Below, in pieces: positions 5,918 through 16,047 of a stretch of DNA of 64,000 nt. This DNA is from the human T2T-CHM13v2.0 reference genome, Homo sapiens: the NCBI RefSeq assembly GCF_009914755.1, contig NC_060932.1. One strand, given 5' to 3'. The notes under the pieces were generated by a model. The model was not told the origin of the DNA and searched no databases. It worked only from the letters and a program-made list of their open reading frames with translations. The translations under genes and the position numbers were made by a program. Positions within the stretch are counted from its first letter, which is position 1. Each line of letters opens with the position of its first letter.

Positions 5918-8900
5918 CGTTTTCCATTTTTTTTTAAATTATACTTTAATTACTAGGGTACATGTGCACAACGTGCAGGTTTATTACGTATGTAAGCACG
6001 TGCCATGTTGGTGTGCTGCACCCATTCACTAGTCATTTACATTAGGTATATCTCTTAATGTTATCCCTCCCCCTCCCCCCGCCCATGACAGGCCCCGGTG
6101 TGTGATGTTCCCCTTTCTGCGTCCAAGTGTTCTCCTAGTTCAATTCCCACCTATGAGTGGGATCACGCGGTGTTTGGTTTTTTTGTCCTTGCGATAGTTT
6201 GCTAAGAATGATGGTTTCCAGCTTCATCCGTGTCCCTCCGAAGGGCATGAACACATGCTTTTTTATGGCTGCATAGTATTCCACGGTGTATTTGTGCCAC
6301 GTTTCCTTAATCCAGTCTATCATTGATGGACATCTGGGCTGGTTCCAAGTCTTTGCTACTGTGAACGGTGCCGCAATAAACATACGTCTGCGTGTGTCCT
6401 TTTAGCAGCATGATTTATAGTCCTATGGGTGTATACCCAGTAATGGGACGGCTGGGTCAAATGGTATTTCTAATTCTAGATCCTTGAGGATTCGCCACAC
6501 TATCTTCCACAACCGCTGAACTGGTTTACAGTCCCACCAGCAGTGTAAAAGTGTCCCTATTTCTCCACTACCTCTCCAGCACCTGTTGTTTCCTGACTTT
6601 TTTATTGATCGCTATTGTAACTGGTGTGAGACGATATCTCTTTGCGGATTTGATTTGCATTTCTCTGATGACCAGTGTTGATGAGCATTTTTTCATGTGT
6701 CTGTTGGCTGCATAAATGTCTTCTTTTTAGAAGTGTCTCTTCATATCCTTCCCGCACTTGTTGATGGGGTTGTTTGGTTTTTCTTGTAACTCTGTTTGAG
6801 TTCTTAGTAGATTCTGGATATTAGCCCTTTGTCAGATGAGTAGATTGCAAAAATTTTCTCCCTTTCTGTAGCATGCCTGTTCACTCTGATGGGAGTTTCT
6901 TTAGCTGTGCAGAAACTCTTTAGTGTAATTAGATGCCGTTTGTCAATATTGGCTTTTGTTGCCTTTGCTTTTGGCGTTTTAGACATGAGGTCCTTGCCCA
7001 TGCCTATGTCCTGAATGGTATTGCCTAGGTTTTCTCCTAGGGTTTGTATGGCTTAAGATGTAACATTTAAGTCTTTCATCCGTCTTGAATAAACTTTTGT
7101 ATAAGGTGTAAGGAAGGGATCCAATTTCACCTTCGGACATATGGCTAGCCAGTTTTCCCAGCACCATTTATTAAATAGGGAATCCTTTCCCCATTTCTTG
7201 TTTTTGTCAGGTTTGTCAAAGATCCGACGGTTGTAGATGTGTCGTATTATTTCTGAGGGCTCTATTCTGTTCCATTGGTCTACAGTAACCAAAAAAAGGC
7301 AACCAACAGCATGCTGTTTGGTTACTGTAGGCTTGTAGTGTAGTTTGAAGTCGGGTAGCTTGATGCCTCCACCTTTGTTCTTTTGGCTTAGGATTATCTT
7401 GGCAGTGGGGGCCCTTTTGTGGTTCCATGTAAACTTTCAAGTAGTTTTTTCCAATTCTGTGAAGAAAGTCCTTGGTAGCTTGATGGGGATGGCATTGGAT
7501 CTATAATATACCTTGGGCAGTATGGCCATTTTCACGATACTGATTCTTCCTAACCGTGAGCATGGAATATTCTTCCATTGGTTTGTGTCCTCTTTTATTT
7601 CGTGGAGCAGTGATTTGTAGTTCTCCTTGAAGAGGTCCTTCGCACATCGCATCCCTTGTTAGTTGGATTCCTCAGAATTTTATTCTCTTTGAAGCAATTG
7701 TGAATGGGAGCTCAGTCATGATTTGGCTCTCTGTTTGCCTGTTATTGGTGTATGAGAATGCTTGTGTGTTTTGCACATCGATTTTGTATCCTGAGACTTT
7801 GCTGAAGTTGCTTATCAGCTTAAGGAGATTTTGGGCTGAGACGATGGGGTTTTCTAAATATTCAATCATGTCATCTACAAACAGGGACAATTTGACTTCC
7901 TCTTTTCCTAATTGATTACTCTTTATTTCTTTCTCCTGCCTGATTGCCCTGGCCAGAAGTTCCAACACTATGTTGAATAGGAGTGGTGAGAGAGGGCACC
8001 CCTGTCTTGTGGCAGTTTGCAAAGGGAATGCTTCCACTTTTTGCCCATTCAGTATGATATTGGCTGTGGGTTTGCCCTAAATAGCCCTTATTATTTTGAG
8101 GTATGTCCCATCAGTACCTAATTTATTGAGAGTTTTTGGCATGAAAGGCTGTTGAATTTTGTCAAAGGCCTTTTCTGCATCTGTTGAGATAATCACGCGG
8201 TTTCTGTCTTTGGTTCCGATTATATGCTGGATTATGTTTATTGATTTGCATATGTTGGACCAGCCTGCATGTCAGGGATGAAGCCCACTTGATCATAATG
8301 GATAAGCTCTTTGATGTGCTGCTGGATTCGGTTTGCCAGCATTTTATGGAGGATTTTTCCATCGGTGTTCCTCAGGGATATGGGCCGAAAATTCTCTTTG
8401 TTGGTTGTGTCTCTCTCAGCCTTTGGGATCAGGATGATGCTGGCCTCATAAAATGAGATAGGGAGGATTCCCTCTTTTTCTGTTGATTGGAATAGTTTCC
8501 GAAGGAATGGTACCAGCTCCTCCTTGTACTTCTGGTAGAATTCGGCTGTGAATCCGTCTGGTCCTGGAGTTTTATTGCTTGATAGGCTATTAATTATTGC
8601 CTCAATTTCAGAGCCTGTTATTGGTCTATTCAGGCATTCAGCTTCTTCCTGGTTTACTCTGGGGAGGTTGCATGTGTCCAGGAATTTATTCATTTCTTCT
8701 AGATTTCCGAGTTTGTTTGCCTAGAGGTGTTGACAGTATTCTCTCATGGTAGTTTGTACTTCTGTGGGATCAGTGGTGATATCCCCTTTATCATTTTTTA
8801 TTGCATCTGCTTGATTCTTCTTCCTTTCATTCTTTAATAGTCTTGCTAGTGGTCTATCAATTTTGTTGATGGTTTCAAAAAACCCGCTCCTGGATTCATT

Positions 8901-9590
8901 GATTTTTTGAAGGGTTTTTTGGGTCTCTATCTCCTTCAGTTCTGCTCGGATCTTAGTTATTTCTTGCCTTCTGCTAGCTTTTGAATGTGTTTGCTCTTGC
9001 TTCTCTCATCCTTTTAATGGTGATGTTAGGGTATGCATTTTTGATCTTTCCTGCTTTCCCTTGTGGGCGTTTAGTGCTATAAATTTCCCTCTACACACTG
9101 CTTAAAATGTGTCCCAGAGATTCTGGTATGTTGTGTCTTTGTTCTCATTGCTTTCAGAGAATATCTTTATTTCTGCCTTCATTTCGTTATGTACCCAGTA
9201 CTCATTCAGGAACAGCTTGTCCGGTTTCCATGCAGTTGTGCGGTTTTGAGTGAGTTTCTCAATCCTGAGGTCTAGTGTGATTGCAATGTGGTCTGAGAGA
9301 CCGTTTGTAATAATTTCTGTAATTTTACTTTTACTGAGGAGTGCTTTACTTCCAACTATGTGGTCAATGTGGAAATAAGTGTGATGTGGTGCTGAGAAGA
9401 ATGTATATTCTGTTGATTTGGGGTGGAGCGTTCTGTAGATGTCTCCTAGGTCCGCTTGGTGCAGAGCTGAGCTCAATTCCCGGATATCCTTTTTTAACTT
9501 TCTGTCTCGTTGGTGTGTCTAATGTTGACAGTGGGGTGTTAAGTTTGCCATTATTATTATTATTACTATGTGGGAGTCTAAGTCTCTTTT
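5918..9590 (-). mobile_element. 5'-truncated L1PA (ORF2 EN/RT remnants and 3' UTR), unit 1, with 11-bp TSD
   Basis: ORF2 fragments ([62 protein letters not shown]), degenerate poly(A) at about 5920-5935, and TSD gatcacacttt at 5907-5917 and 9591-9601. Many stops and frameshifts. Confidence 0.96.
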
Positions 9591-9712
9591 GATCACACTT
9601 TAAAGACCAAAAGGTAGAAGCGCAAAGACGTTATCTGTCCAATATTACAAACCTAGTAAGTGGTGGAATTTGGCCTTGAACCCAGATCTGTAACTCCAGA
9701 GCCGAAGTGCTT
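9591..9712 (-). mobile_element. MIR, right half
   Basis: acaaacctagtaagtggtggaatttggccttgaacccagatctgtaactccagagcc matches the antisense MIR consensus. Confidence 0.7.
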
Positions 9713-9837
9713 CACCCACCTCCCTGTGGTGCCTCTACAGAAAAAGAGGTAAGCAGGCATTCCGAAAGCTGGTGGGCCGGGGGGCTGGCCTTGTACTCAG
9801 AAGCCATGGAAGTCCCACGTGGGGTGGCTAGTGGTGT

Positions 9838-10030
9838 AAGGACAGAGGTCTCGGATGGGCAGAGGGATGTGGACAGGCGCGAGGGCGCGCGGCAGGGACT
9901 CGGGGGACTGGGAGTGGCGGCTCGGGGCTGCGGGAGGCGATTGGTGGAAGGACAGAGGTCTGGGAGGGGCAGAGGGATGTGGACAGGCCCGAGGGGCCGC
10001 GGCAGGGATTCCGGGGGACCGGGAGTGGGG
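9838..10030. repeat. G-rich direct repeat with ~110-bp period in the 3' region of the REXO1L gene (all units)
   Basis: aaggacagaggtct...gcagagggatgtggacagg...gcggcaggga...gggggac.gggagtgg occurs at 9838 and 9948. Confidence 0.8.
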
Positions 10031-10154
10031 GGTTGGGGTTACTCTTGGCTTTTTGCCCTCTCCTGCCGCCGGCTGCTCCAGTTTCTTTCGCTTTGCGGCG
10101 AGGTGGGCAGGGTGAGCTCTCGGGACTGATGGCGGTTTTGGAAGAGGCCTGGGG

Positions 10155-12182
10155 CTAAGGACAGGCCAGGGCGGCGGGAGAGGCGGACCGGTGGCGTGGC
10201 TGGATCTGGGCGCGCTGTCGGACCTTCCACATCACCAGCTGCAGGCAGGCGTTTGCGTCCTCGCTGGAGTTGTGGCCGTCCTGGCTGTCCTGGATGATCT
10301 GTGCCAGGTAGTCGGCCGCGAGATTCCTGAGGGAGCGCTTGTAGGGGAAACCCAGGTAGTGCGGGAAGAGCACGGCCGTGTCCACCACGGTGCTGTGGAT
10401 GAGCTTCAGGGCCAGCAGGTCGCTCTCCAGGCTGTGCCCGATGAGGATGGTTTGGGCGCTGAAAAAGCTCAGCAGGATGGCTTGGACTTGGGGCAACGTG
10501 ATGCTCGTCTTGGCGACGTCGGCCTCGGTGACTCCGGAAAACCTGGTGTTGTAGTCCACGATCTCGTTGTCGGGCTTGACGAAGGTGTCGTACACCACTC
10601 GCATGTCGGCGTCCACCACGGTGACGCGGGTCAGCTCTAGGCCATGCGTGGTGTAGCACATCTCACAGTCCAAGGCGTAGATTCCTGGATAAGCGTCTCT
10701 GGACAACTCTTTCTTGAAGGTCTCCACGAAGCCATCGAGGCTCTCCTTGCGGCCGTCCCGCACGTGCTGCTTTGCCACCTGGCAGCCCACAGAGCCAGGA
10801 GCAGCTGCACAGCAGGTGTACTGGCTAACCCGGCCTCCAGCCACCTGGCTCGAGCGGACCCGCCCCCAGTGATAATAACACAACTGGTCGCGTACACAGC
10901 GGCCCGAGGAGGACACCAGGTACTCGGTGCCACAACGGCAGCAGACCCTGCAGGAGGAGTCGCCGGGCCCCTTCCCCTGGCCAGTGAAGAGGACGGCGCC
11001 TCCGGGCCGCTCGGGGTGCGGGAAGGGGTAGCCGTTCTCCTTGAGCTGGTCCTGGGTGAGCAGGAACTCCTGGAGGCGGCTGTACAGGGCGGCCCTGCTG
11101 AGGCCGGGCATGGAGCTGGGGGTCAGGCCCTTCAGTCTCTTGAGGGTGTTCAGGACCACGTTCAGGTACCTGTTCTTGTTGGGGCTGCAGTCGTAGGCCA
11201 CCTTCTCCTCGTTCAGCGCCTTCTCCTCGGCCTCCTGCTTGGAGGCGCAGAACTTGAGACACTCTTCGGTGAACAGTTGGAGATAGCCTCGGCGGAGGAC
11301 GGTGGGGACTTGGCACCCAGAGCTTCGGAGGATAATGGGTTTCTTCAAACTCAAACTCGGTAAGGATGCACGACGGACGATTCGCTTAGAGCTGGTGGTG
11401 GCGGTGGTCTTGCATGCCATCCCTGACCTGTTGCGCGTCTTCCCTGGCTGTCTGCCGACCTTGGAGCCACGGGAGCGTTGGCTGCTGCTGGCCACCCGGG
11501 TTCTCTTGGCATCTGTGTAACCTGTGACCAAGCAAGGGCTGGAAGAGTGGGCGATCGTCTTCCTCTTCCTGGGGGCTGAGATGCGGACTCCCGAGGGCCT
11601 CTCTGTCAGCCTTGGGGCGGCTGGCAAGCGGCAGGCCGATCCCCTCTGCGCAGGGAAGTAGCACGACTCCGTCACCATCTTGGGCCACGCTGGGGGCACC
11701 GCCGGACCCCTGTTCTGGGGCTCCGCCTGGATGTCCACAAATGCTGAGGCCTGCTTGTGCATCTGGGGCACCCAGAGCCCGAAGCTCTGGGCAGGCTGAT
11801 GAGAGGGCAGTGGGAATTCTGGAGCCTCGAGGGCCGCCTCCTCGGCCACCTTCTTAGCTTCTGGGTATCCAGGTGGGAACCAGCAGGGAGCTGTGGCTCG
11901 CAACATCTTGCTGCCTTCGGGAGCACCGGCCGGGCTCTGCTCCGCTCCCAAATGGCGGCTTGCCTCCGGGGCCGCCTCCTTGGCCACCTTCTTAGCTTCT
12001 GGGTATCCAGGGCGGAACCAGCAGGGAGCTGTGGCTCGCAACATCTTGCTGCCTTCGGGAGCACCGGCCTGGCTCTGCTCCCCTCCCAAATGGCGGCTTG
12101 CCTCCAGGGCCGCCTCCTCGGCCACCTTCTTAGCTTCTGGGTATCCAGGGGGGAACCAGCAGGGAGCTGTGGCTCGCAACAT
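10155..12182 (-). CDS. REXO1L1: REXO1-like exonuclease GOR, intronless retrogene (675 aa from first ATG), copy 1; often annotated as a pseudogene
   Basis: Uninterrupted ORF with the first ATG at 12182 (gcAAGATGt); the ORF-track start at 12227 is TTG. C-terminal DEDDh motifs [14 protein letters not shown] and GHNSSEDA; Cys/His-rich CCRCG..CYYHWG region; [12 protein letters not shown] segment of the REXO1 family. Confidence 0.9.
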
Positions 12183-12238
12183 CTTGCTGCCTTCGGGAGC
12201 ACCGGCCTGGCTCTGCTCCTCTCCCAACTGGCGGCTTC
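11825..12238. repeat. 3 x 138-bp (46-aa) tandem repeat at the 5' end of the ORF (all copies)
   Basis: gccaccttcttagcttctgggtatccag at 11845, 11983 and 12121. [25 protein letters not shown] occurs three times. Confidence 0.95.
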
Positions 12239-12240
12239 AA

Positions 12241-12520
12241 TGAGTGCTGCGGCCGCCACTTGTCGCCTTTATATAGGCACAGGGCAGACTGGGTGGGACT
12301 TCTCCTTGATAGGTTGGTGCTTCAGTCCAATCACACTGAGCCTCATCTTCCACCAGACTCCAGCTTGGGAATGCCTCGGGGGGTGCGCTAATGGAATCAA
12401 CTGGAACTCCCGGTTGCTAAACTTGGAGCTAGGTTGCTTTTCCTGAGTTAAGTAACTGTCCCTGCAGGGCAGTCCTATAATGGCTACTGGAATTGGGCTA
12501 CCTAGGATTAAATTAAGGTT
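12241..12520 (-). promoter_or_regulatory. Putative promoter of copy 1 (TATA, Inr-like, GT box, CCAAT, DUX-type site)
   Basis: TATATAAAG at 12275-12267, CTCATT near 12241, GGGTGGG at 12291, CCAAT at 12327, TAATGGAATCA at 12389-12399, GGATTAAATTA at 12505-12515. Confidence 0.62.
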
Positions 12521-12720
12521 CAGGGAGGTTGGTCAACTTGCTTGGGCCCACACAGCACCCCTTGGAGCCAGGACTGGGCCAGCAGTCTGCTGCATGCTGG
12601 AGGGCGGGATCCCTCTGGGGCTGCCTTTCCCTGCTCTGTGCACTCCGCCGCTGCGGGCAAATTGAGGACAGGAAGCGGACCGCACCCACTTCTCTCCCAG
12701 GACTTGGGCAATGTTCAACA

Positions 12721-13605
12721 CAGGTGGTCTTCCAAAGGTTCATAGAAAATGCACATGGTGAAGAAACTATGCATGGATTTCCACTGGTGTGCACTAAAAT
12801 AAACTTGTCCTAACTTCTGATAACCTTTCTGAACTAGATCTAGTTTGAGGCACTAAGAAGGATGAGACATCCACTGAAAAGGACTCCCATCAGAGCAACA
12901 TGAATTCCACGAAAACTGCAGCAAGAGGAAACATCAAATTTATGGTGAAGCTTGGGTGGAAGATTGAAGAAATCATTGACGTTTTAAGAAAAGCTTGTAA
13001 GGACACTACCCCAAAGAAATGAACTCTTTACGAATGTATAGCTTGTTTCAAGAAGAGGTGAGAAGATGTGGAAGATGAATCCTGCAGTGGCTGTGAAAAC
13101 CACTGTGCCCAGATGAGCTGCAGTTACGACGAGAGCTATCAGTGGAAATTTTAAACAGGAGGGATCACGATCCTGACTCATCCCTCTGACAAATTGTAAG
13201 CGGCAGTTGGAACATGGCTTCACCAATATGATCGCCAAGGCAAAGCATCATGAAAGCGATGGCTACCAAGAGGTGGCAGTGGTCCAGTCAAAGGAAAAGG
13301 AGGCCAGTCAGGAGCCCACATCATGGCATCAGTGTTTTGGGACACTCAAGGCATTTTGCTTGTTGACTTTCTGAAAGGCCAAACATCTGCTTATTAGGAG
13401 AGTGTTCTGAGAAGCTTAGATAAAGCTTTGGTAGAAACATGCTGGGAAAGTCTCACTAGATCCTTGTTCACCACATCAATGCTCTGCTCATTCCTCTCAT
13501 CAAACAAGGGCAATTTTGTCAGTTTCAATGGGCAGTCCTTAGGAATTCACCTTACGGGCTGCTTTCATTCCTTCTAAATTCTTTTTGTTTCCTAATGATA
13601 AAAAG
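12721..13605 (+). mobile_element. Hsmar2 relic, unit 2
   Basis: Copy of 531-1415 at offset 12190. Confidence 0.88.
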
Positions 13606-14090
13606 TCTCCTTGCCTTGCTTGGAAAGATGAGAGAAAGTCTCCTTGCCTTGTTTGGACAGATGAGAGATGAGATCCTCCTCTTCTCTCCCAGGACAGAAT
13701 GGTGAGACTTGAGTTTCCTTTCTCCTCACTCTTCTCCTCCTTGAGGGAGCTGCTGTGCCGGACAGACCTGCCCCCGTGTCTAGACACTGGTAGACTCGTT
13801 TAAGTTCCTCACAGGCAATCCTCCATGGGGTCAAAGTGGAAGGACTTATTTCTTCAGGGCTCAGTAGTCCACATCCTGGCGCGCACCTTCACCAGCCCAG
13901 GGCGGGGTAGAGGAGGGTGAAAGGGCGTGGCTCAGAGCCCGCTTCTTCCGCTCGGGCGTATCCTGGGAGGAACCCTTGTCCGGTGAGCATGTCTTCGTCT
14001 CTACCAAATTCCCTAGTGGGACATTTCTGGCAGCCCTACTTGTTCAGCAGCTTACGGGGGTCAGGTGGACCTCTGCTAGTCACCAGCCTG
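13602..14090 (-). pseudogene. Decayed upstream REXO1 retrocopy fragment, unit 2
   Basis: KEEKSEEKGNSSLTIL and ISHLSKQGKE translations, as in unit 1. Confidence 0.75.
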
Positions 14091-16047
14091 AAGCCCTTTC
14101 TCCATTTCAGCTATTTTGGCAGTTGCCTAGGTGACTTTTGAACCTCATTATCCAGAACAGCAAACGGACGAGGGGTGAGAAGAGTGGCCGTCTGGGTTTG
14201 CAGCATAGTGCTGCCTTCTAGGAGTTGTGCAGTCTTCGATTGTGTGAAACTTCACCTGGCTGATTTGTGGCAATGCCTCCACAAATTCGCTAAATTCAGT
14301 AGCTTTTGCCTTCCAAGATTCATTTACACAATGTTGAATGCTTTAAAGGAATGAGCATGAAGAGTGCTGGGCTGGAAAGTGATGAGATGGGTGGTAGGGA
14401 CTCCTCGGAGTAGAGGAGTAGAGTTTTACTATTATGACTAGGAGGCAAATAAAAAGAAGCTGAACGTGATCCATAATAAAAGAAGCACACACTCACAGAG
14501 CTCCATACCAACTACATTAAAATGGAAATCATGATATTTGGAAATACAACTTAATTGGAAATCATTAAGTAATCTCATCAACCTTTTTACAGTGGGTGGC
14601 AGGGCTATGGAGGGAAAACAGCAATGGTTCTGGCACCTACTTAACTTGATTCCATTAAATTCACCCAACAGGCCTCCAGAGAACATATTACTGCTTTGAT
14701 ATTACAAAGGGAAAAACAGCTATGGCGTCTCTGAAAAGCACAACGTGCTAGGACTGGAATGACTTTAAAACCACACATAAATTTCTGAGAGATTTTTGCC
14801 ATAAGGTACCATCCACCTTACTGTAAACCACATCCTAAAATTGTCTGCAGTGCAAATGGATTATGTGCATCCAACAGGAAACAGCATAGGTTGAGAAGCT
14901 GTTACTTAATAGCTTCATTGTCACCACGAGTGTAAAATGTGGGGTCTCATCACTTTTGCACCCACGTTTTGCCTGTTGGTTTCTCCACACTGTCAGGAGC
15001 ATTTGACCAACTCACTGTGGCTCAGGGTCCCTTACGCAGCCTGTTGGGGAAACCAGTGGGTATTGAAGACCTGCCTCTGGTGTGCCAGGAGGTTGTGCCT
15101 GCCGGCCACTCTGACTTGCGATCTTCCGCCTCAGTGTATGGCTTCCTACACCTGGATAATTAACATTGCCAGCATGATAAGGAGGTCCTTTCATCACTAT
15201 TGCCACTAGTCCTTCCGACTCCTGTGCCCTGTTTCTCCTTTATTGGAACCCAAGAACGAGTAAACATAGCATTTTCAAACATCCCGCCCCCTTCCCTGGT
15301 AACACCAATATTCCACCATCCTAATTCCCTCACAAGCATTCAGTCTCTCCACCCTGAGGTGGTGAAATCCCTGCAGGCATTTATAAGTATACCTGGACAG
15401 AAGAAATACAAGATACCGTTCTATTAACTCAATATAGTGTTGCTAAGTTCGTACTTTTGTTTGGTTTATTTTATTTTATAAATAGGTATCACTCGCATGG
15501 TTCCAAATGCGATAGGCACAGAGAGTATATATGATGGAATTACATCCTCCTTCCCTGCACTCAGCAACCGAGATCTTCCCGCTACGGGCACTCAAAGGTT
15601 TCATTGTCTGAAATATCAGCCTAAACGTAGTTTATGTTTAGGAAGCAACAACCGTAAATAGGCCCACATCCAAACGGAGTGGATTTAGGTTTCACTTTTT
15701 CAAGGAAAAACCATCAAAGAATTTTTCCACATACTTGTAAACCATCCCACGTATAGAATCCATTTTTACTGACACAAATTTAGTACCAATAAACGACTCT
15801 TCTTCTCAATTTGTTTTATTTAACAATAAGTCTTGAACGTCATTCCCAGTTAACATTTTGAAGAGTTTCCTCTCTTTCGTTCTGTTTTAGCTGCAAAGTA
15901 TTCTTCCGTAAGGATGAACGTACTATAATTTATTAGCCAGCCACTTAGTGATGTACAATTAAGCAGTTTTAAATCTTTGACTCTTGGAAATATTGTTTCT
16001 CACACATAAATATTTCTATAAAATAAATTAGTTGAATTAGAATTGTT

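What the first reader, a model, noticed from the sequence alone, without database searches (positions are those of the whole stretch)
11727..14090. Split retrogene: a ~1.9-kb block replaced the REXO1 5' part with a new promoter and N-terminus
Seen: 13602-14090 (minus) translates in pieces to KKRALSHA, DVDY*ALKK, DPMEDCL, NESTSV, KEEKSEEKG and ISHLSKQGKE, while the intact ORF contains [15 protein letters not shown] at about 11726. As I recall human REXO1, it reads ...[25 protein letters not shown]... continuously, so the two pieces join almost residue for residue. Between them lie the Hsmar2 relic, the TATA/CCAAT promoter and about 150 codons I cannot match to REXO1. Inference: a longer retrocopy was interrupted, the upstream half decayed with stops and frameshifts, and the half fused to the captured promoter stayed open. 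The decayed half is a same-age neutral control that argues for selection on the ORF.
Basis: partly seen in the sequence, partly recalled or inferred. Interest (0 to 1): 0.8.

Follow-up and report, generated by a model that had tools for sequence, protein, structure and literature searches.

The report
GOR retrogene kept its parent's intron
The 1.9-kb stretch that splits the REXO1-derived pieces in each GOR/REXO1L1 repeat unit is not foreign DNA but most of one of REXO1's own introns, so the gene is a partly spliced retrocopy whose start codon and likely promoter come from that intron.

Summary
Window 14096-13641 (minus) is a decayed copy of REXO1 coding sequence, with 4 in-frame stops and 6 frameshifting indels. 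It is collinear with the intact 675-codon ORF (12182-10155), whose REXO1 exon homology starts at 11729.

The 1.9-kb block between the two pieces was not inserted or captured. From 13054 to 11730 it aligns with the 2,053-bp REXO1 intron on chr19 that lies between the same two exons (E 2e-77). That intron holds an Hsmar2 copy at the same site and in the same orientation. Its unique flanks also match the window (z 13-34; controls 1-3).

All 12 other intron positions in the copied span are cleanly absent. The unit is therefore a semi-processed retrocopy. The upstream exon ends exactly at its splice donor and is joined to the inside of Hsmar2, by a cryptic acceptor or by a deletion.

The first 151 codons are intron-derived, lengthened by a 138-bp triplication. 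The same N-terminus ([15 protein letters not shown]) heads short REXO1-like proteins of other primates, Glires and bats. It is also open in frame in human REXO1's intron. It is therefore old, possibly an alternative first exon of REXO1.

Selection on the ORF is supported. This is a new member of a known kind.

The parts
13641..14096 (-). Decayed REXO1 coding sequence. It comprises the 3' part of REXO1's large exon (14096-13750) joined without an intron to the 105-bp exon (13749-13641). The copy is 5'-truncated at about 14096.
   Evidence: Searches give collinear blastn hits to chr19 1798716-1798192 and 1797258-1797155. The junction GGCACAGCAG|CTCCCTCAAGG matches REXO1 GGCCCGGCAG|CCCCCCAAGG. 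There are 4 stops and 6 frameshifts. No REXO1 similarity was found further upstream in the unit.
13602..13667 (-). A 33-bp tandem duplication (two copies, 90% alike). It spans the junction between the exon end (GGAG) and the Hsmar2-internal sequence (ACTTT), so it arose after that junction formed.
   Evidence: (TRF: 13595-13668, period 33, 2.2 copies) and the sequence.
12726..13606 (+). Hsmar2 mariner relic, antisense to the gene. The 5' ITR is at about 12714-12747, there is an internal deletion of about 170 bp at 13087/13088, and the last 220 bp or so (with the 3' ITR) are missing. It is part of the retained REXO1 intron.
   Evidence: PF01359 matches 13254-13394. Eleven of 11 other genomic copies align to 12714-13091 and 8 of 11 also to 13085-13608. 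The ITR matches the oligo in PMC3770610. The chr19 intron holds the 5' 354 bp of a copy at the same place.
12183..12725 (-). Unique intron-derived DNA upstream of the first ATG, and the putative promoter. It holds inverted CCAAT at 12331-12327, GTCCCACCC at 12299-12291 and TATATAAA at 12275-12268.
   Evidence: It aligns with chr19 1795752-1795340 (local score z 32, against 1-3 for controls). ATTGG and the GC-rich box have counterparts in the chr19 intron. The TATA box has none.
11824..12237 (-). Three tandem copies of a 138-bp unit, each holding an in-frame ATG (aa 1, 46 and 92). REXO1's intron has one copy.
   Evidence: period 138, 3.0 copies, 95% matches; alignment of the three copies with chr19 1795345-1795180. 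New World monkey GOR proteins of 578-584 aa begin at the equivalent of aa 92.
11730..12182 (-). Intron-derived coding part of the ORF (aa 1-151). The last 60 codons and the third repeat copy are collinear and in frame with the 3' end of REXO1's intron.
   Evidence: tblastn matches aa 94-223 to chr19 1795278-1794880 with no gap before the exon start. The alignment from 11910 to 11730 has no gap.
10155..11729 (-). Exon-derived coding part (aa 152-675 plus the stop codon). It covers REXO1 exon blocks from VEPPRRG to the C-terminus, without introns and without the cassette exon. It holds the EloA-BP1 domain and the DEDDh exonuclease motifs.
   Evidence: Twelve exon blocks are contiguous in the window and separated by introns on chr19. 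PF15870 matches at E 2e-38. The motifs [14 protein letters not shown] and GHNSSEDA are present. The cassette exon at chr19 1790448-1790332 is absent.
9778..10154 (-). Remnant of REXO1's 3' UTR. Homology stops at about 9778. There is no poly(A) tail and no target-site duplication.
   Evidence: 10281-9836 matches chr19 1787469-1787033, and 9840-9778 matches 1786775-1786713. One search found no A-run and no shared word longer than 7 bases between the two ends.

Best explanation
Each 12.2-kb unit carries one semi-processed retrocopy of REXO1, which lies on chr19.

The template RNA:
- It started in or before REXO1's large exon.
- It had the intron after the large exon removed, and all introns downstream of exon 'VEPPRRG...' removed.
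- It skipped one cassette exon.
- It kept about 1.6 kb of the 2-kb intron between the 105-bp exon and the next exon. That intron already held an antisense Hsmar2 element.

The junction:
- The 105-bp exon ends exactly at its splice donor.
- It is joined to a point inside Hsmar2.
- The most likely cause is splicing to a cryptic acceptor. A later deletion is the alternative.

The coding sequence:
- The retained intron sequence reads in frame into the next exon from an ATG 60 codons upstream.
- That ATG-to-exon stretch became the N-terminus of GOR.
- A 138-bp unit holding the ATG was later triplicated.
- The DNA just upstream is also intron-derived. It holds CCAAT- and GC-box-like motifs shared with REXO1's intron and a TATA box found only in GOR. 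It is the likely promoter.

The outcome:
- With translation starting inside the retained intron, the upstream exon copies were no longer read and decayed.
- The downstream ORF stayed under selection.

What is shown and what is inferred:
- Shown: the homology and collinearity of every segment, the absence of the other introns, the decay of the upstream part and the intactness of the ORF.
- Inferred: the RNA intermediate, the cryptic splice, promoter activity, and where translation starts.
For: 1. Block equals intron.
- Relaxed blastn joins window 13054-12110 to chr19 1796108-1795209 in one alignment (969 columns, E 2e-77), then 11927-11518 to 1795301-1794884 (E 4e-52).
- Default blastn already gave 13043-12582 and 11896-11547.
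- The parts outside Hsmar2 score z 32, 34 and 13 against shuffles. Two control pairs score z 1.2 and 2.9.

2. Same Hsmar2 site.
- Chr19 1795753-1796105 belongs to the same repeat family. Thirty-nine other hits at 76-80% identity were scored, out of 874 candidates.
- It has the same orientation as the window's relic. The alignment runs on past the ITR into flanks that are unrelated in the 11 other copies.

3. What chr19 lacks.
- Chr19 has no counterpart of window 13594-13054.
- At that place it holds a cluster of four Alu pieces (1797120-1796107).
- In the window this stretch is the continuation of the same Hsmar2 element.

4. Processing.
- The intron between the large exon and the 105-bp exon is precisely absent.
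- Eleven intron positions downstream are absent.
- The cassette exon is absent, with the same SR|AALY junction as the annotated exon-skipped REXO1 records of Old World monkeys.

5. The junction.
- The exon's last bases GGAG abut ACTTTTTATCATTAGG of Hsmar2. The donor GTAAGG is missing.
- Other Hsmar2 copies read ...CCCTTTAAAG|ATTTT at that point, and one reads TTTACAG|A.

6. Age of the N-terminus.
- The same start heads anthropoid GOR proteins and short REXO1-like proteins of Microcebus, Otolemur, Nycticebus, Lepus, Castor, Sciurus and Myotis.
- Human REXO1's intron reads MALRTTAPCCFPP... in frame.

7. Selection.
- Sixty-three of the 66 array copies scored have no internal stop.
- Human GOR against New World monkey GOR is 91-92% identical in the exonuclease part and 61-64% in the linker. 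The DEDDh motifs are kept in 16 of 16 sequences.
- CpG observed/expected is 0.69 in the exon-derived ORF and 0.39 in the decayed exons.
Against: - Neither a poly(A) tail nor a target-site duplication was found. 3' UTR homology stops about 700 bp short of where I would expect REXO1's mRNA to end (the expected mRNA end is recalled, from no call). The usual end marks of retroposition are therefore missing.
- The two Hsmar2 copies share only 7 derived substitutions in 342 columns. That is no more than random pairs share (3-12 in 22 comparisons). Common descent of the Hsmar2 copies therefore rests on position, orientation and flanks, not on shared mutations.
- Identity in the unique intron part is low (62.5% over 730 aligned columns with 96 gap columns).
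- REXO1's exon borders were inferred from GT-AG sites and from protein records of other species. No human REXO1 annotation was consulted.
- Promoter activity and the transcription start were not tested. The TATA box has no counterpart in REXO1's intron.
- The chr19 intron stretch is not CpG-island-like (observed/expected 0.36, the same as another REXO1 intron at 0.34).
- RefSeq's models in this window annotate only the last 318 codons (hub annotation).
Confidence: 0.88

Rival explanations
1. A fully processed REXO1 retrocopy was later interrupted by a foreign 1.9-kb block (Hsmar2 plus a promoter plus new coding DNA) that came from another locus.
For: The block holds a transposon relic and a TATA box that REXO1's intron lacks. 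The exon's splice donor and the first 35 bp or so of the intron are missing from the window.
Against: Of the block's 1,877 bp, 1,325 (13054-11730) align collinearly with the REXO1 intron that lies between exactly these two exons. The other 552 bp are the continuation of the same Hsmar2 element. The break in the REXO1 coding sequence falls exactly on an exon-exon boundary, which a random insertion would hit only rarely.
Confidence: 0.03
2. Same origin, different junction. The whole intron was retained in the template RNA. A later genomic deletion then removed the splice donor, the first part of the intron and the last 220 bp or so of Hsmar2. No cryptic splice was involved.
For: The exon end (..GGAG) and the Hsmar2 site (..AAAG|A) share AG, so a microhomology deletion gives the same sequence. 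The most common reading in other copies, AAG, is a weak acceptor. The upstream region has other deletions, including one of 180 bp.
Against: The upstream breakpoint coincides to the base with the exon's end. Splicing explains this directly. A deletion explains it only by chance (about 2-3 positions out of several hundred; my estimate). One Hsmar2 copy (L039) shows that a single change gives TTTACAG|A, a good acceptor.
Confidence: 0.4
3. The N-terminal extension and promoter were not born in GOR. REXO1 itself has an old internal promoter and an alternative first exon in this intron, giving a short isoform that starts [16 protein letters not shown] simply inherited both.
For: Human REXO1's intron has an in-frame ATG at the same place and an open frame of 307 codons that runs from the intron into the exon. 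Two unnamed transcript-like records (P0135 and P0139, from contigs of 2.5-3.1 kb) group with sheep and hare REXO1 proper, yet start inside this intron sequence. Short REXO1-like proteins of three mammalian orders start at this Met. The ATTGG and GC-rich boxes are shared by GOR's upstream region and the chr19 intron.
Against: Between GOR and the human intron, differences by codon position are 0.23, 0.38 and 0.33 and omega is 0.65, so there is no coding signature. In the hare-like REXO1 record the motif has degraded (GAAVLCGFPPG) and the Met lies elsewhere. The chr19 stretch is not CpG-island-like. P0135 and P0139 could be intron-retaining fragments with a predicted ORF. A search limited to the extension found only 10 anthropoid GOR proteins and no REXO1 isoform.
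Confidence: 0.35

Closest known systems
Semi-processed retrocopies (for example mouse preproinsulin I, and the TMF1 copy inserted in CYBB), as described in PMC4151081 (passages read)
   Same: The copy is RNA-derived and lacks most of the parent's introns but keeps one. In the preproinsulin case (from my own knowledge) the copy also carried parental regulatory DNA because the template RNA was aberrant. That parallels a promoter lying in retained intron DNA here.
   Different: Only part of the intron is kept here, and it is joined at the exact donor to a site inside a transposon. The retained intron supplies the start codon and 60 codons of new N-terminus, triplicated to 151. The upstream exons became a dead leader. 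The whole unit was then amplified to about 70 tandem copies. No poly(A) tail or target-site duplication is left.
REXO1L1 / GOR 12.2-kb tandem array at 8q21.2 (PMC8099727, PMC4063668, PMC2588610, PMC4422118; passages read)
   Same: This is that locus. It has a 12.19-kb unit, one GOR ORF per unit and about 70 units in CHM13. Copy number is variable in humans and higher in chimpanzee and gorilla.
   Different: In the passages I read, those papers treat the gene as a mono-exonic gene or pseudogene. They do not mention a retrocopy origin, the decayed upstream REXO1 exons or the intron origin of the 5' part. The terms 'retro' and 'intron' occur 0 times in PMC4422118. No held paper contains both REXO1L and retrocop*.
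ELOA3 tandem retrogene array (PMC10664989; passages read)
   Same: It is a primate tandem array of an intronless retrogene with an HSMAR2 element just upstream of the coding exon. Its parent, Elongin A, is the binding partner after which REXO1's EloA-BP1 domain is named. Copy number is also highest in chimpanzee and gorilla (PMC4063668).
   Different: The parent gene and the chromosome differ. No retained parental intron is reported there. Whether its HSMAR2 came from the parent was not examined here.

Membership tests
Retrocopy (processed copy) of REXO1 | The parent's introns are absent at exon-exon junctions | tested here: met
   Twelve of the 13 intron positions in the copied span are precisely absent. 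The parent lies on another chromosome (chr19 against chr8).
Retrocopy (processed copy) of REXO1 | A 3' poly(A) tail and flanking target-site duplication | tested here: not met
   There is no A-run at the end of homology (about 9778). No direct repeat longer than 7 bases is shared by the two ends. Old age and later rearrangement (a MIR-like stretch and an L1 fragment follow) may have erased them.
Semi-processed retrocopy | At least one parental intron, or part of one, is kept in place between the exons that flank it in the parent | tested here: met
   Window 13054-11730 aligns with chr19 1796108-1795102, between the copies of the 105-bp exon and the next exon.
REXO1/Rex1-type DEDDh exonuclease | Catalytic DEDDh motifs (DxE, D, Hx4D) | tested here: met
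   [14 protein letters not shown] and GHNSSEDA are present in the window's ORF and in 15 of 15 relatives checked. The assignment of these motifs to DEDDh residues is from my own knowledge.
REXO1/Rex1-type DEDDh exonuclease | Pfam exonuclease domain PF00929 | tested here: inconclusive
   It is not listed at E <= 0.01 for the window's ORF. It is precomputed for gibbon GOR and for many REXO1 records.
REXO1/Rex1-type DEDDh exonuclease | EloA-BP1 domain PF15870 | tested here: met
   E 2e-38, 132.5 bits against a cut-off of 27.
Hsmar2 mariner element | Hsmar2 terminal inverted repeat and mariner transposase remnant | tested here: met
   The 5' ITR oligo in PMC3770610 matches the consensus of 11 genomic copies and, with changes, window 12714-12747 and chr19. 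PF01359 matches 13254-13394(+) at E 5e-7. The 3' ITR is absent from the window copy.

The most novel reading that the evidence does not exclude
REXO1 carries a conserved internal transcription unit in the intron before exon 'VEPPRRG'. It consists of a promoter and an alternative first exon, and encodes a short isoform that starts [15 protein letters not shown]. RNAs containing this stretch were retrocopied more than once in mammals: as GOR in primates, and as separate copies in Glires and in bats. The primate copy was made from a longer, partly spliced RNA, so it carried the internal promoter along. That would explain why it stayed expressed and under selection, and why it could later be amplified to hundreds of copies.
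Probability: 0.25. Interest if true: 0.65.

Novelty: new member of a known kind. Interest (0 to 1): 0.5.

Why it matters
[quoted passage not shown] Databases still label it sometimes a gene and sometimes a pseudogene.

Knowing its anatomy does three things.
- It explains where the gene's 5' end came from. That is the usual puzzle for retrogenes, which arrive without promoters.
- It gives an internal neutral control (the dead upstream exons) showing that the ORF was kept by selection.
- It corrects the gene model. The ORF has 675 codons with an intron-derived, triplicated N-terminus, not only the 318 codons annotated in this assembly.

It also yields a testable lead: REXO1 itself may have an unannotated short isoform, and that isoform may have been copied repeatedly in mammals.

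Tried and rejected
- Searching the whole genome with the window's Hsmar2 stretch returned only array copies: 40 scored of 1,094 candidates, all on chr8. I used the chr19 copy as the query instead.
- A forced global alignment of the block with the whole intron ran through Alu sequence and was discarded in favour of local alignments.
Stop-free stretches were sent instead. Only 1 of the 6 matched a mariner family.
- Pairwise dN/dS as a contrast between the two halves gave 0.32 against 0.33 and does not discriminate.
- Shared derived substitutions as proof of one Hsmar2 insertion showed no excess.
- No poly(A) tail or target-site duplication was found.
- Phylogeny of the short REXO1-like proteins:
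  - The 'careful' tree never finished.
  - The quick mixture-model tree puts all 16 short proteins in one clade (SH-aLRT 98).
  - My own LG+F+G4 tree puts the bat ones with bat REXO1 instead.
  - The AU test does not reject separate origins per order (p 0.224).
  - A third tree, under a looser constraint, scored worse than the stricter one. That means its fast search failed, so I disregard it.
  - One origin or several therefore stays open.
- A protein search limited to the N-terminal extension found only 10 anthropoid GOR proteins.
- I considered and rejected DNA-level duplication of REXO1 as the origin, because 12 introns are missing.
- I also rejected gene conversion from GOR into REXO1 as the direction of copying, because REXO1 has the full exon-intron structure and orthologues down to birds.


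Full report
WHAT IS IN THE WINDOW

The window lies in the REXO1L1/GOR tandem array on chr8. Five units fall in the window. They are 99.72-99.84% identical over the 4,319 bp studied.

Each unit has a minus-strand ORF of 675 codons. In unit 1 it runs from 12182 to 10155. A search of the same assembly with this protein scored 66 places out of 600 candidates, all in the array. Sixty-three have no internal stop and three have one TGA.

The parent gene REXO1 was found on chr19 at about 1787313-1800020, on the minus strand. I found it by fetching 120 kb and running tblastn and blastn.

CHECK OF THE OBSERVATION

- Window 14096-13750 aligns with the 3' part of REXO1's large exon.
- Window 13749-13641 aligns with the following 105-bp exon.
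- The intron between these two exons is removed to the base.

No REXO1 similarity lies further upstream in the unit. The copy is therefore 5'-truncated at about 14096.

Against REXO1's reading frame this piece has 4 stops and six frameshifting indels. It also has in-frame deletions of 3 and 180 bases, at 70% identity.

The ORF's exon homology begins at 11729 (aa 152, AEPQNRG...), which is the first codon of the next REXO1 exon. The recalled REXO1 sequence across this boundary is confirmed in two ways. GT-AG sites flank a 2,053-bp intron on chr19 (1797154-1795102). REXO1 protein records of macaque and dog read straight through.

WHAT THE 1.9-KB BLOCK IS

The block (13606-11730) is not foreign DNA.
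- Local alignment joins 13054-12110 to chr19 1796108-1795209 in a single alignment (E 2e-77).
- It joins the second and third 138-bp copies to chr19 1795301-1795199.
- It joins 11927-11518 to chr19 1795301-1794884.
- All of these chr19 stretches lie in the intron between the same two exons, or run from it into the next exon.

Outside the transposon the match is far above chance. Local scores have z of 32, 34 and 13 against shuffles, while two unrelated control pairs give z of 1.2 and 2.9.

The transposon is Hsmar2.
- Its 5' ITR matches the oligo printed in PMC3770610.
- PF01359 matches 13254-13394.
- Eleven of 11 other genomic copies align with 12714-13091, and 8 of 11 also with 13085-13608.

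REXO1's intron holds the first 354 bp of an Hsmar2 copy in the same orientation, with its ITR at the matching place. Beyond the ITR the window and chr19 keep aligning, whereas the flanks of the other copies are unrelated.

The 552 bp of the window's relic that chr19 lacks correspond to the place where chr19 now has four Alu pieces. A later loss on chr19 therefore accounts for the difference.

Length also fits. The unique intron part is 651 bp on chr19. In the window it is 996 bp, of which 276 bp are the two extra copies of the 138-bp unit.

HOW THE UNIT AROSE

Twelve of the 13 intron positions in the copied span are cleanly absent.

The cassette exon at chr19 1790448-1790332 is also absent. 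The junction is the same SR|AALY as in the exon-skipped REXO1 records of Old World monkeys. The template was therefore a spliced RNA of a known isoform type that kept part of one intron. That makes the unit a semi-processed retrocopy, a class described in PMC4151081.

The 105-bp exon ends exactly at its donor (GGAG) and continues with Hsmar2-internal sequence (ACTTTTTATC...). The donor GTAAGG, the first 35 bp or so of the intron and the last 220 bp or so of Hsmar2 are missing. At that point other Hsmar2 copies read ...CCCTTTAAAG|ATTTT in the antisense direction, and one reads TTTACAG|A.

I think splicing to a cryptic acceptor in antisense Hsmar2 is somewhat more likely than a later deletion with AG microhomology. 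The reason is that the upstream breakpoint is the exact exon end. The sequence alone cannot decide between the two.

A 33-bp tandem duplication later copied this junction.

The usual end marks of retroposition are not found. There is no poly(A) tail and no target-site duplication, and 3' UTR homology ends at about 9778.

WHERE THE N-TERMINUS AND PROMOTER COME FROM

ORF aa 94-151 align without a gap, and in the same frame, with the last 60 codons' worth of REXO1's intron. That intron has an ATG at the matching place (MALRTTAPCCFPP...) and an open frame of 307 codons that runs into the exon.

The 138-bp unit that holds this ATG is triplicated in the window. New World monkey GOR proteins of 578-584 aa start at the equivalent of aa 92, so they show one copy.

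Upstream of the first ATG the DNA is still intron-derived. An inverted CCAAT and a GC-rich box have counterparts in the chr19 intron. The TATA box (12275-12268) has none. Promoter function is inferred, not shown.

THE EXTENSION IS OLD

The same N-terminus heads two groups of proteins:
- GOR proteins of apes and New World monkeys;
- short, fast-evolving REXO1-like proteins of mouse lemur, galago, slow loris, hare, beaver, squirrel and Myotis.

Two unnamed transcript-like records group with sheep and hare REXO1 proper and also start in this intron stretch.

The phylogeny is unresolved.
- A quick mixture-model tree joins all 16 short proteins (SH-aLRT 98).
- An LG+F+G4 tree places the bat ones with bat REXO1.
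- An AU test does not reject separate origins per order (p 0.224).
- The careful tree did not finish.

The introduction of PMC3770610 places Hsmar2 in the primate lineage. The window and chr19 Hsmar2 copies behave as a star with the rest of the family. They differ from the consensus by 20.5% and 15.2% and from each other by 28.7%, and they share 7 derived sites against a background of 3-12. GOR therefore arose about when Hsmar2 was active.

That fits a primate-stem origin for GOR and independent copies elsewhere. It conflicts with a single origin before primates, Glires and bats diverged. I leave this open.

It is also the basis of the novel reading: REXO1 may have an internal alternative first exon that was copied repeatedly. 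Three results count against that reading.
- The comparison of GOR with the human intron shows no codon-position signature (0.23, 0.38, 0.33; omega 0.65).
- The chr19 stretch is not CpG-island-like (0.36).
- The search limited to the extension found only anthropoid GORs (10 proteins).

SELECTION

The upstream piece has 10 in 456 bp. The 1,575 bp of exon-derived ORF have none, and the 453 bp of intron-derived ORF have none.

It does not hold for pairwise dN/dS, which is 0.32 against 0.33.

There is independent support.
- Human GOR against New World monkey GOR is 91-92% identical in the exonuclease part, 83-86% in the middle, 61-64% in the linker and 69-72% in the extension.
- REXO1 proper, macaque against capuchin, is 93-98% identical in the same regions.
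- The DEDDh motifs are intact in 16 of 16 sequences.
- CpG observed/expected is 0.69 in the exon-derived ORF and 0.39 in the dead exons.

The C-terminal half is therefore under purifying selection. The linker and the extension evolve at about the rate I would expect for neutral sequence. That expectation rests on a recalled human-marmoset divergence and is only rough.

WHAT IS KNOWN

In the passages I read, the array papers describe unit size, copy number, methylation and the neocentromere, and call the gene mono-exonic or a pseudogene.

I found no statement that it is a retrocopy with a retained parental intron.
- The search for REXO1L1 found 40 papers, of which I looked at four by term search.
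- The search for REXO1, retrogene and GOR listed nothing that bears on this among the 15 shown.
- The search for REXO1L with retrocop* found 0 papers.
- Tyson et al. 2014 is not held, and I did not open any supplements.

VERDICT

The finding is a new, well-documented member of a known kind and of moderate interest. It also gives a more interesting but unproven lead about an internal REXO1 isoform and recurrent retrocopying.

Noticed in passing
window 12726-13606 and the same stretch in the other four units (+12192, +24382, +36571, +48760): Among the five units, differences from unit 1 are concentrated in the Hsmar2 relic (6-10 per 881 bp). The exon-derived ORF (1,572 bp) and the decayed exons (490 bp) show none. 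Unit 1 may carry a different variant or conversion tract there.
   Followed up: partly
window 10155-11111 (hub annotation) against 10155-12182: The RefSeq models for this assembly annotate only the last 318 codons of an ORF that is open for 675 codons in 63 of the 66 array copies scored.
   Followed up: partly
window 8200-9720 (minus): Directly after the end of REXO1 3' UTR homology come a MIR-like stretch (about 9720-9600) and an L1 ORF2-like fragment (about 9560-8200) in the same orientation as the gene. These names come from reading the sequence, not from a family search.
   Followed up: no
L014 (chr19 1790001-1800000): 1795653-1794733, minus strand: REXO1's intron runs open in the exon's frame for 185 codons before the exon, 307 codons in all. 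An ATG lies 61 codons upstream of the exon, at the position of GOR's start. For DNA of this GC content my rough estimate is that 185 open codons occur by chance about 1% of the time.
   Followed up: partly
L014: chr19 1797120-1796107: A cluster of four Alu pieces fills half of this REXO1 intron. It sits exactly where about 930 bp of the Hsmar2 element are missing relative to the GOR copy. This suggests an Alu-associated deletion in the REXO1 lineage.
   Followed up: partly
literature: PMC10664989 and PMC4063668: The ELOA3 (TCEB3C) array is another primate tandem array of a retrogene with an HSMAR2 just upstream. Its parent, Elongin A, is the partner named in REXO1's EloA-BP1 domain, a domain that GOR keeps. 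Both arrays are largest in chimpanzee and gorilla. Paired amplification of the two partners is possible. This is speculation.
   Followed up: no
G000 chr8 86143637-86145637, 86810958-86812958 and 86835199-86837199: Three array copies differ from the rest. They show 98% identity, match only from aa 11, and have one TGA inside a longer open frame of 707 codons. They form a variant subfamily of units.
   Followed up: no
proteins P0167 (Nycticebus) and P0223, against P0162 (Otolemur) and P0173/P0230 (Myotis): Within the loris group and within the bat group of short REXO1-like proteins, one record includes the REXO1 cassette exon and its close relatives do not. This is either an annotation difference or a sign that these copies came from a different splice form than GOR.
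   Followed up: no
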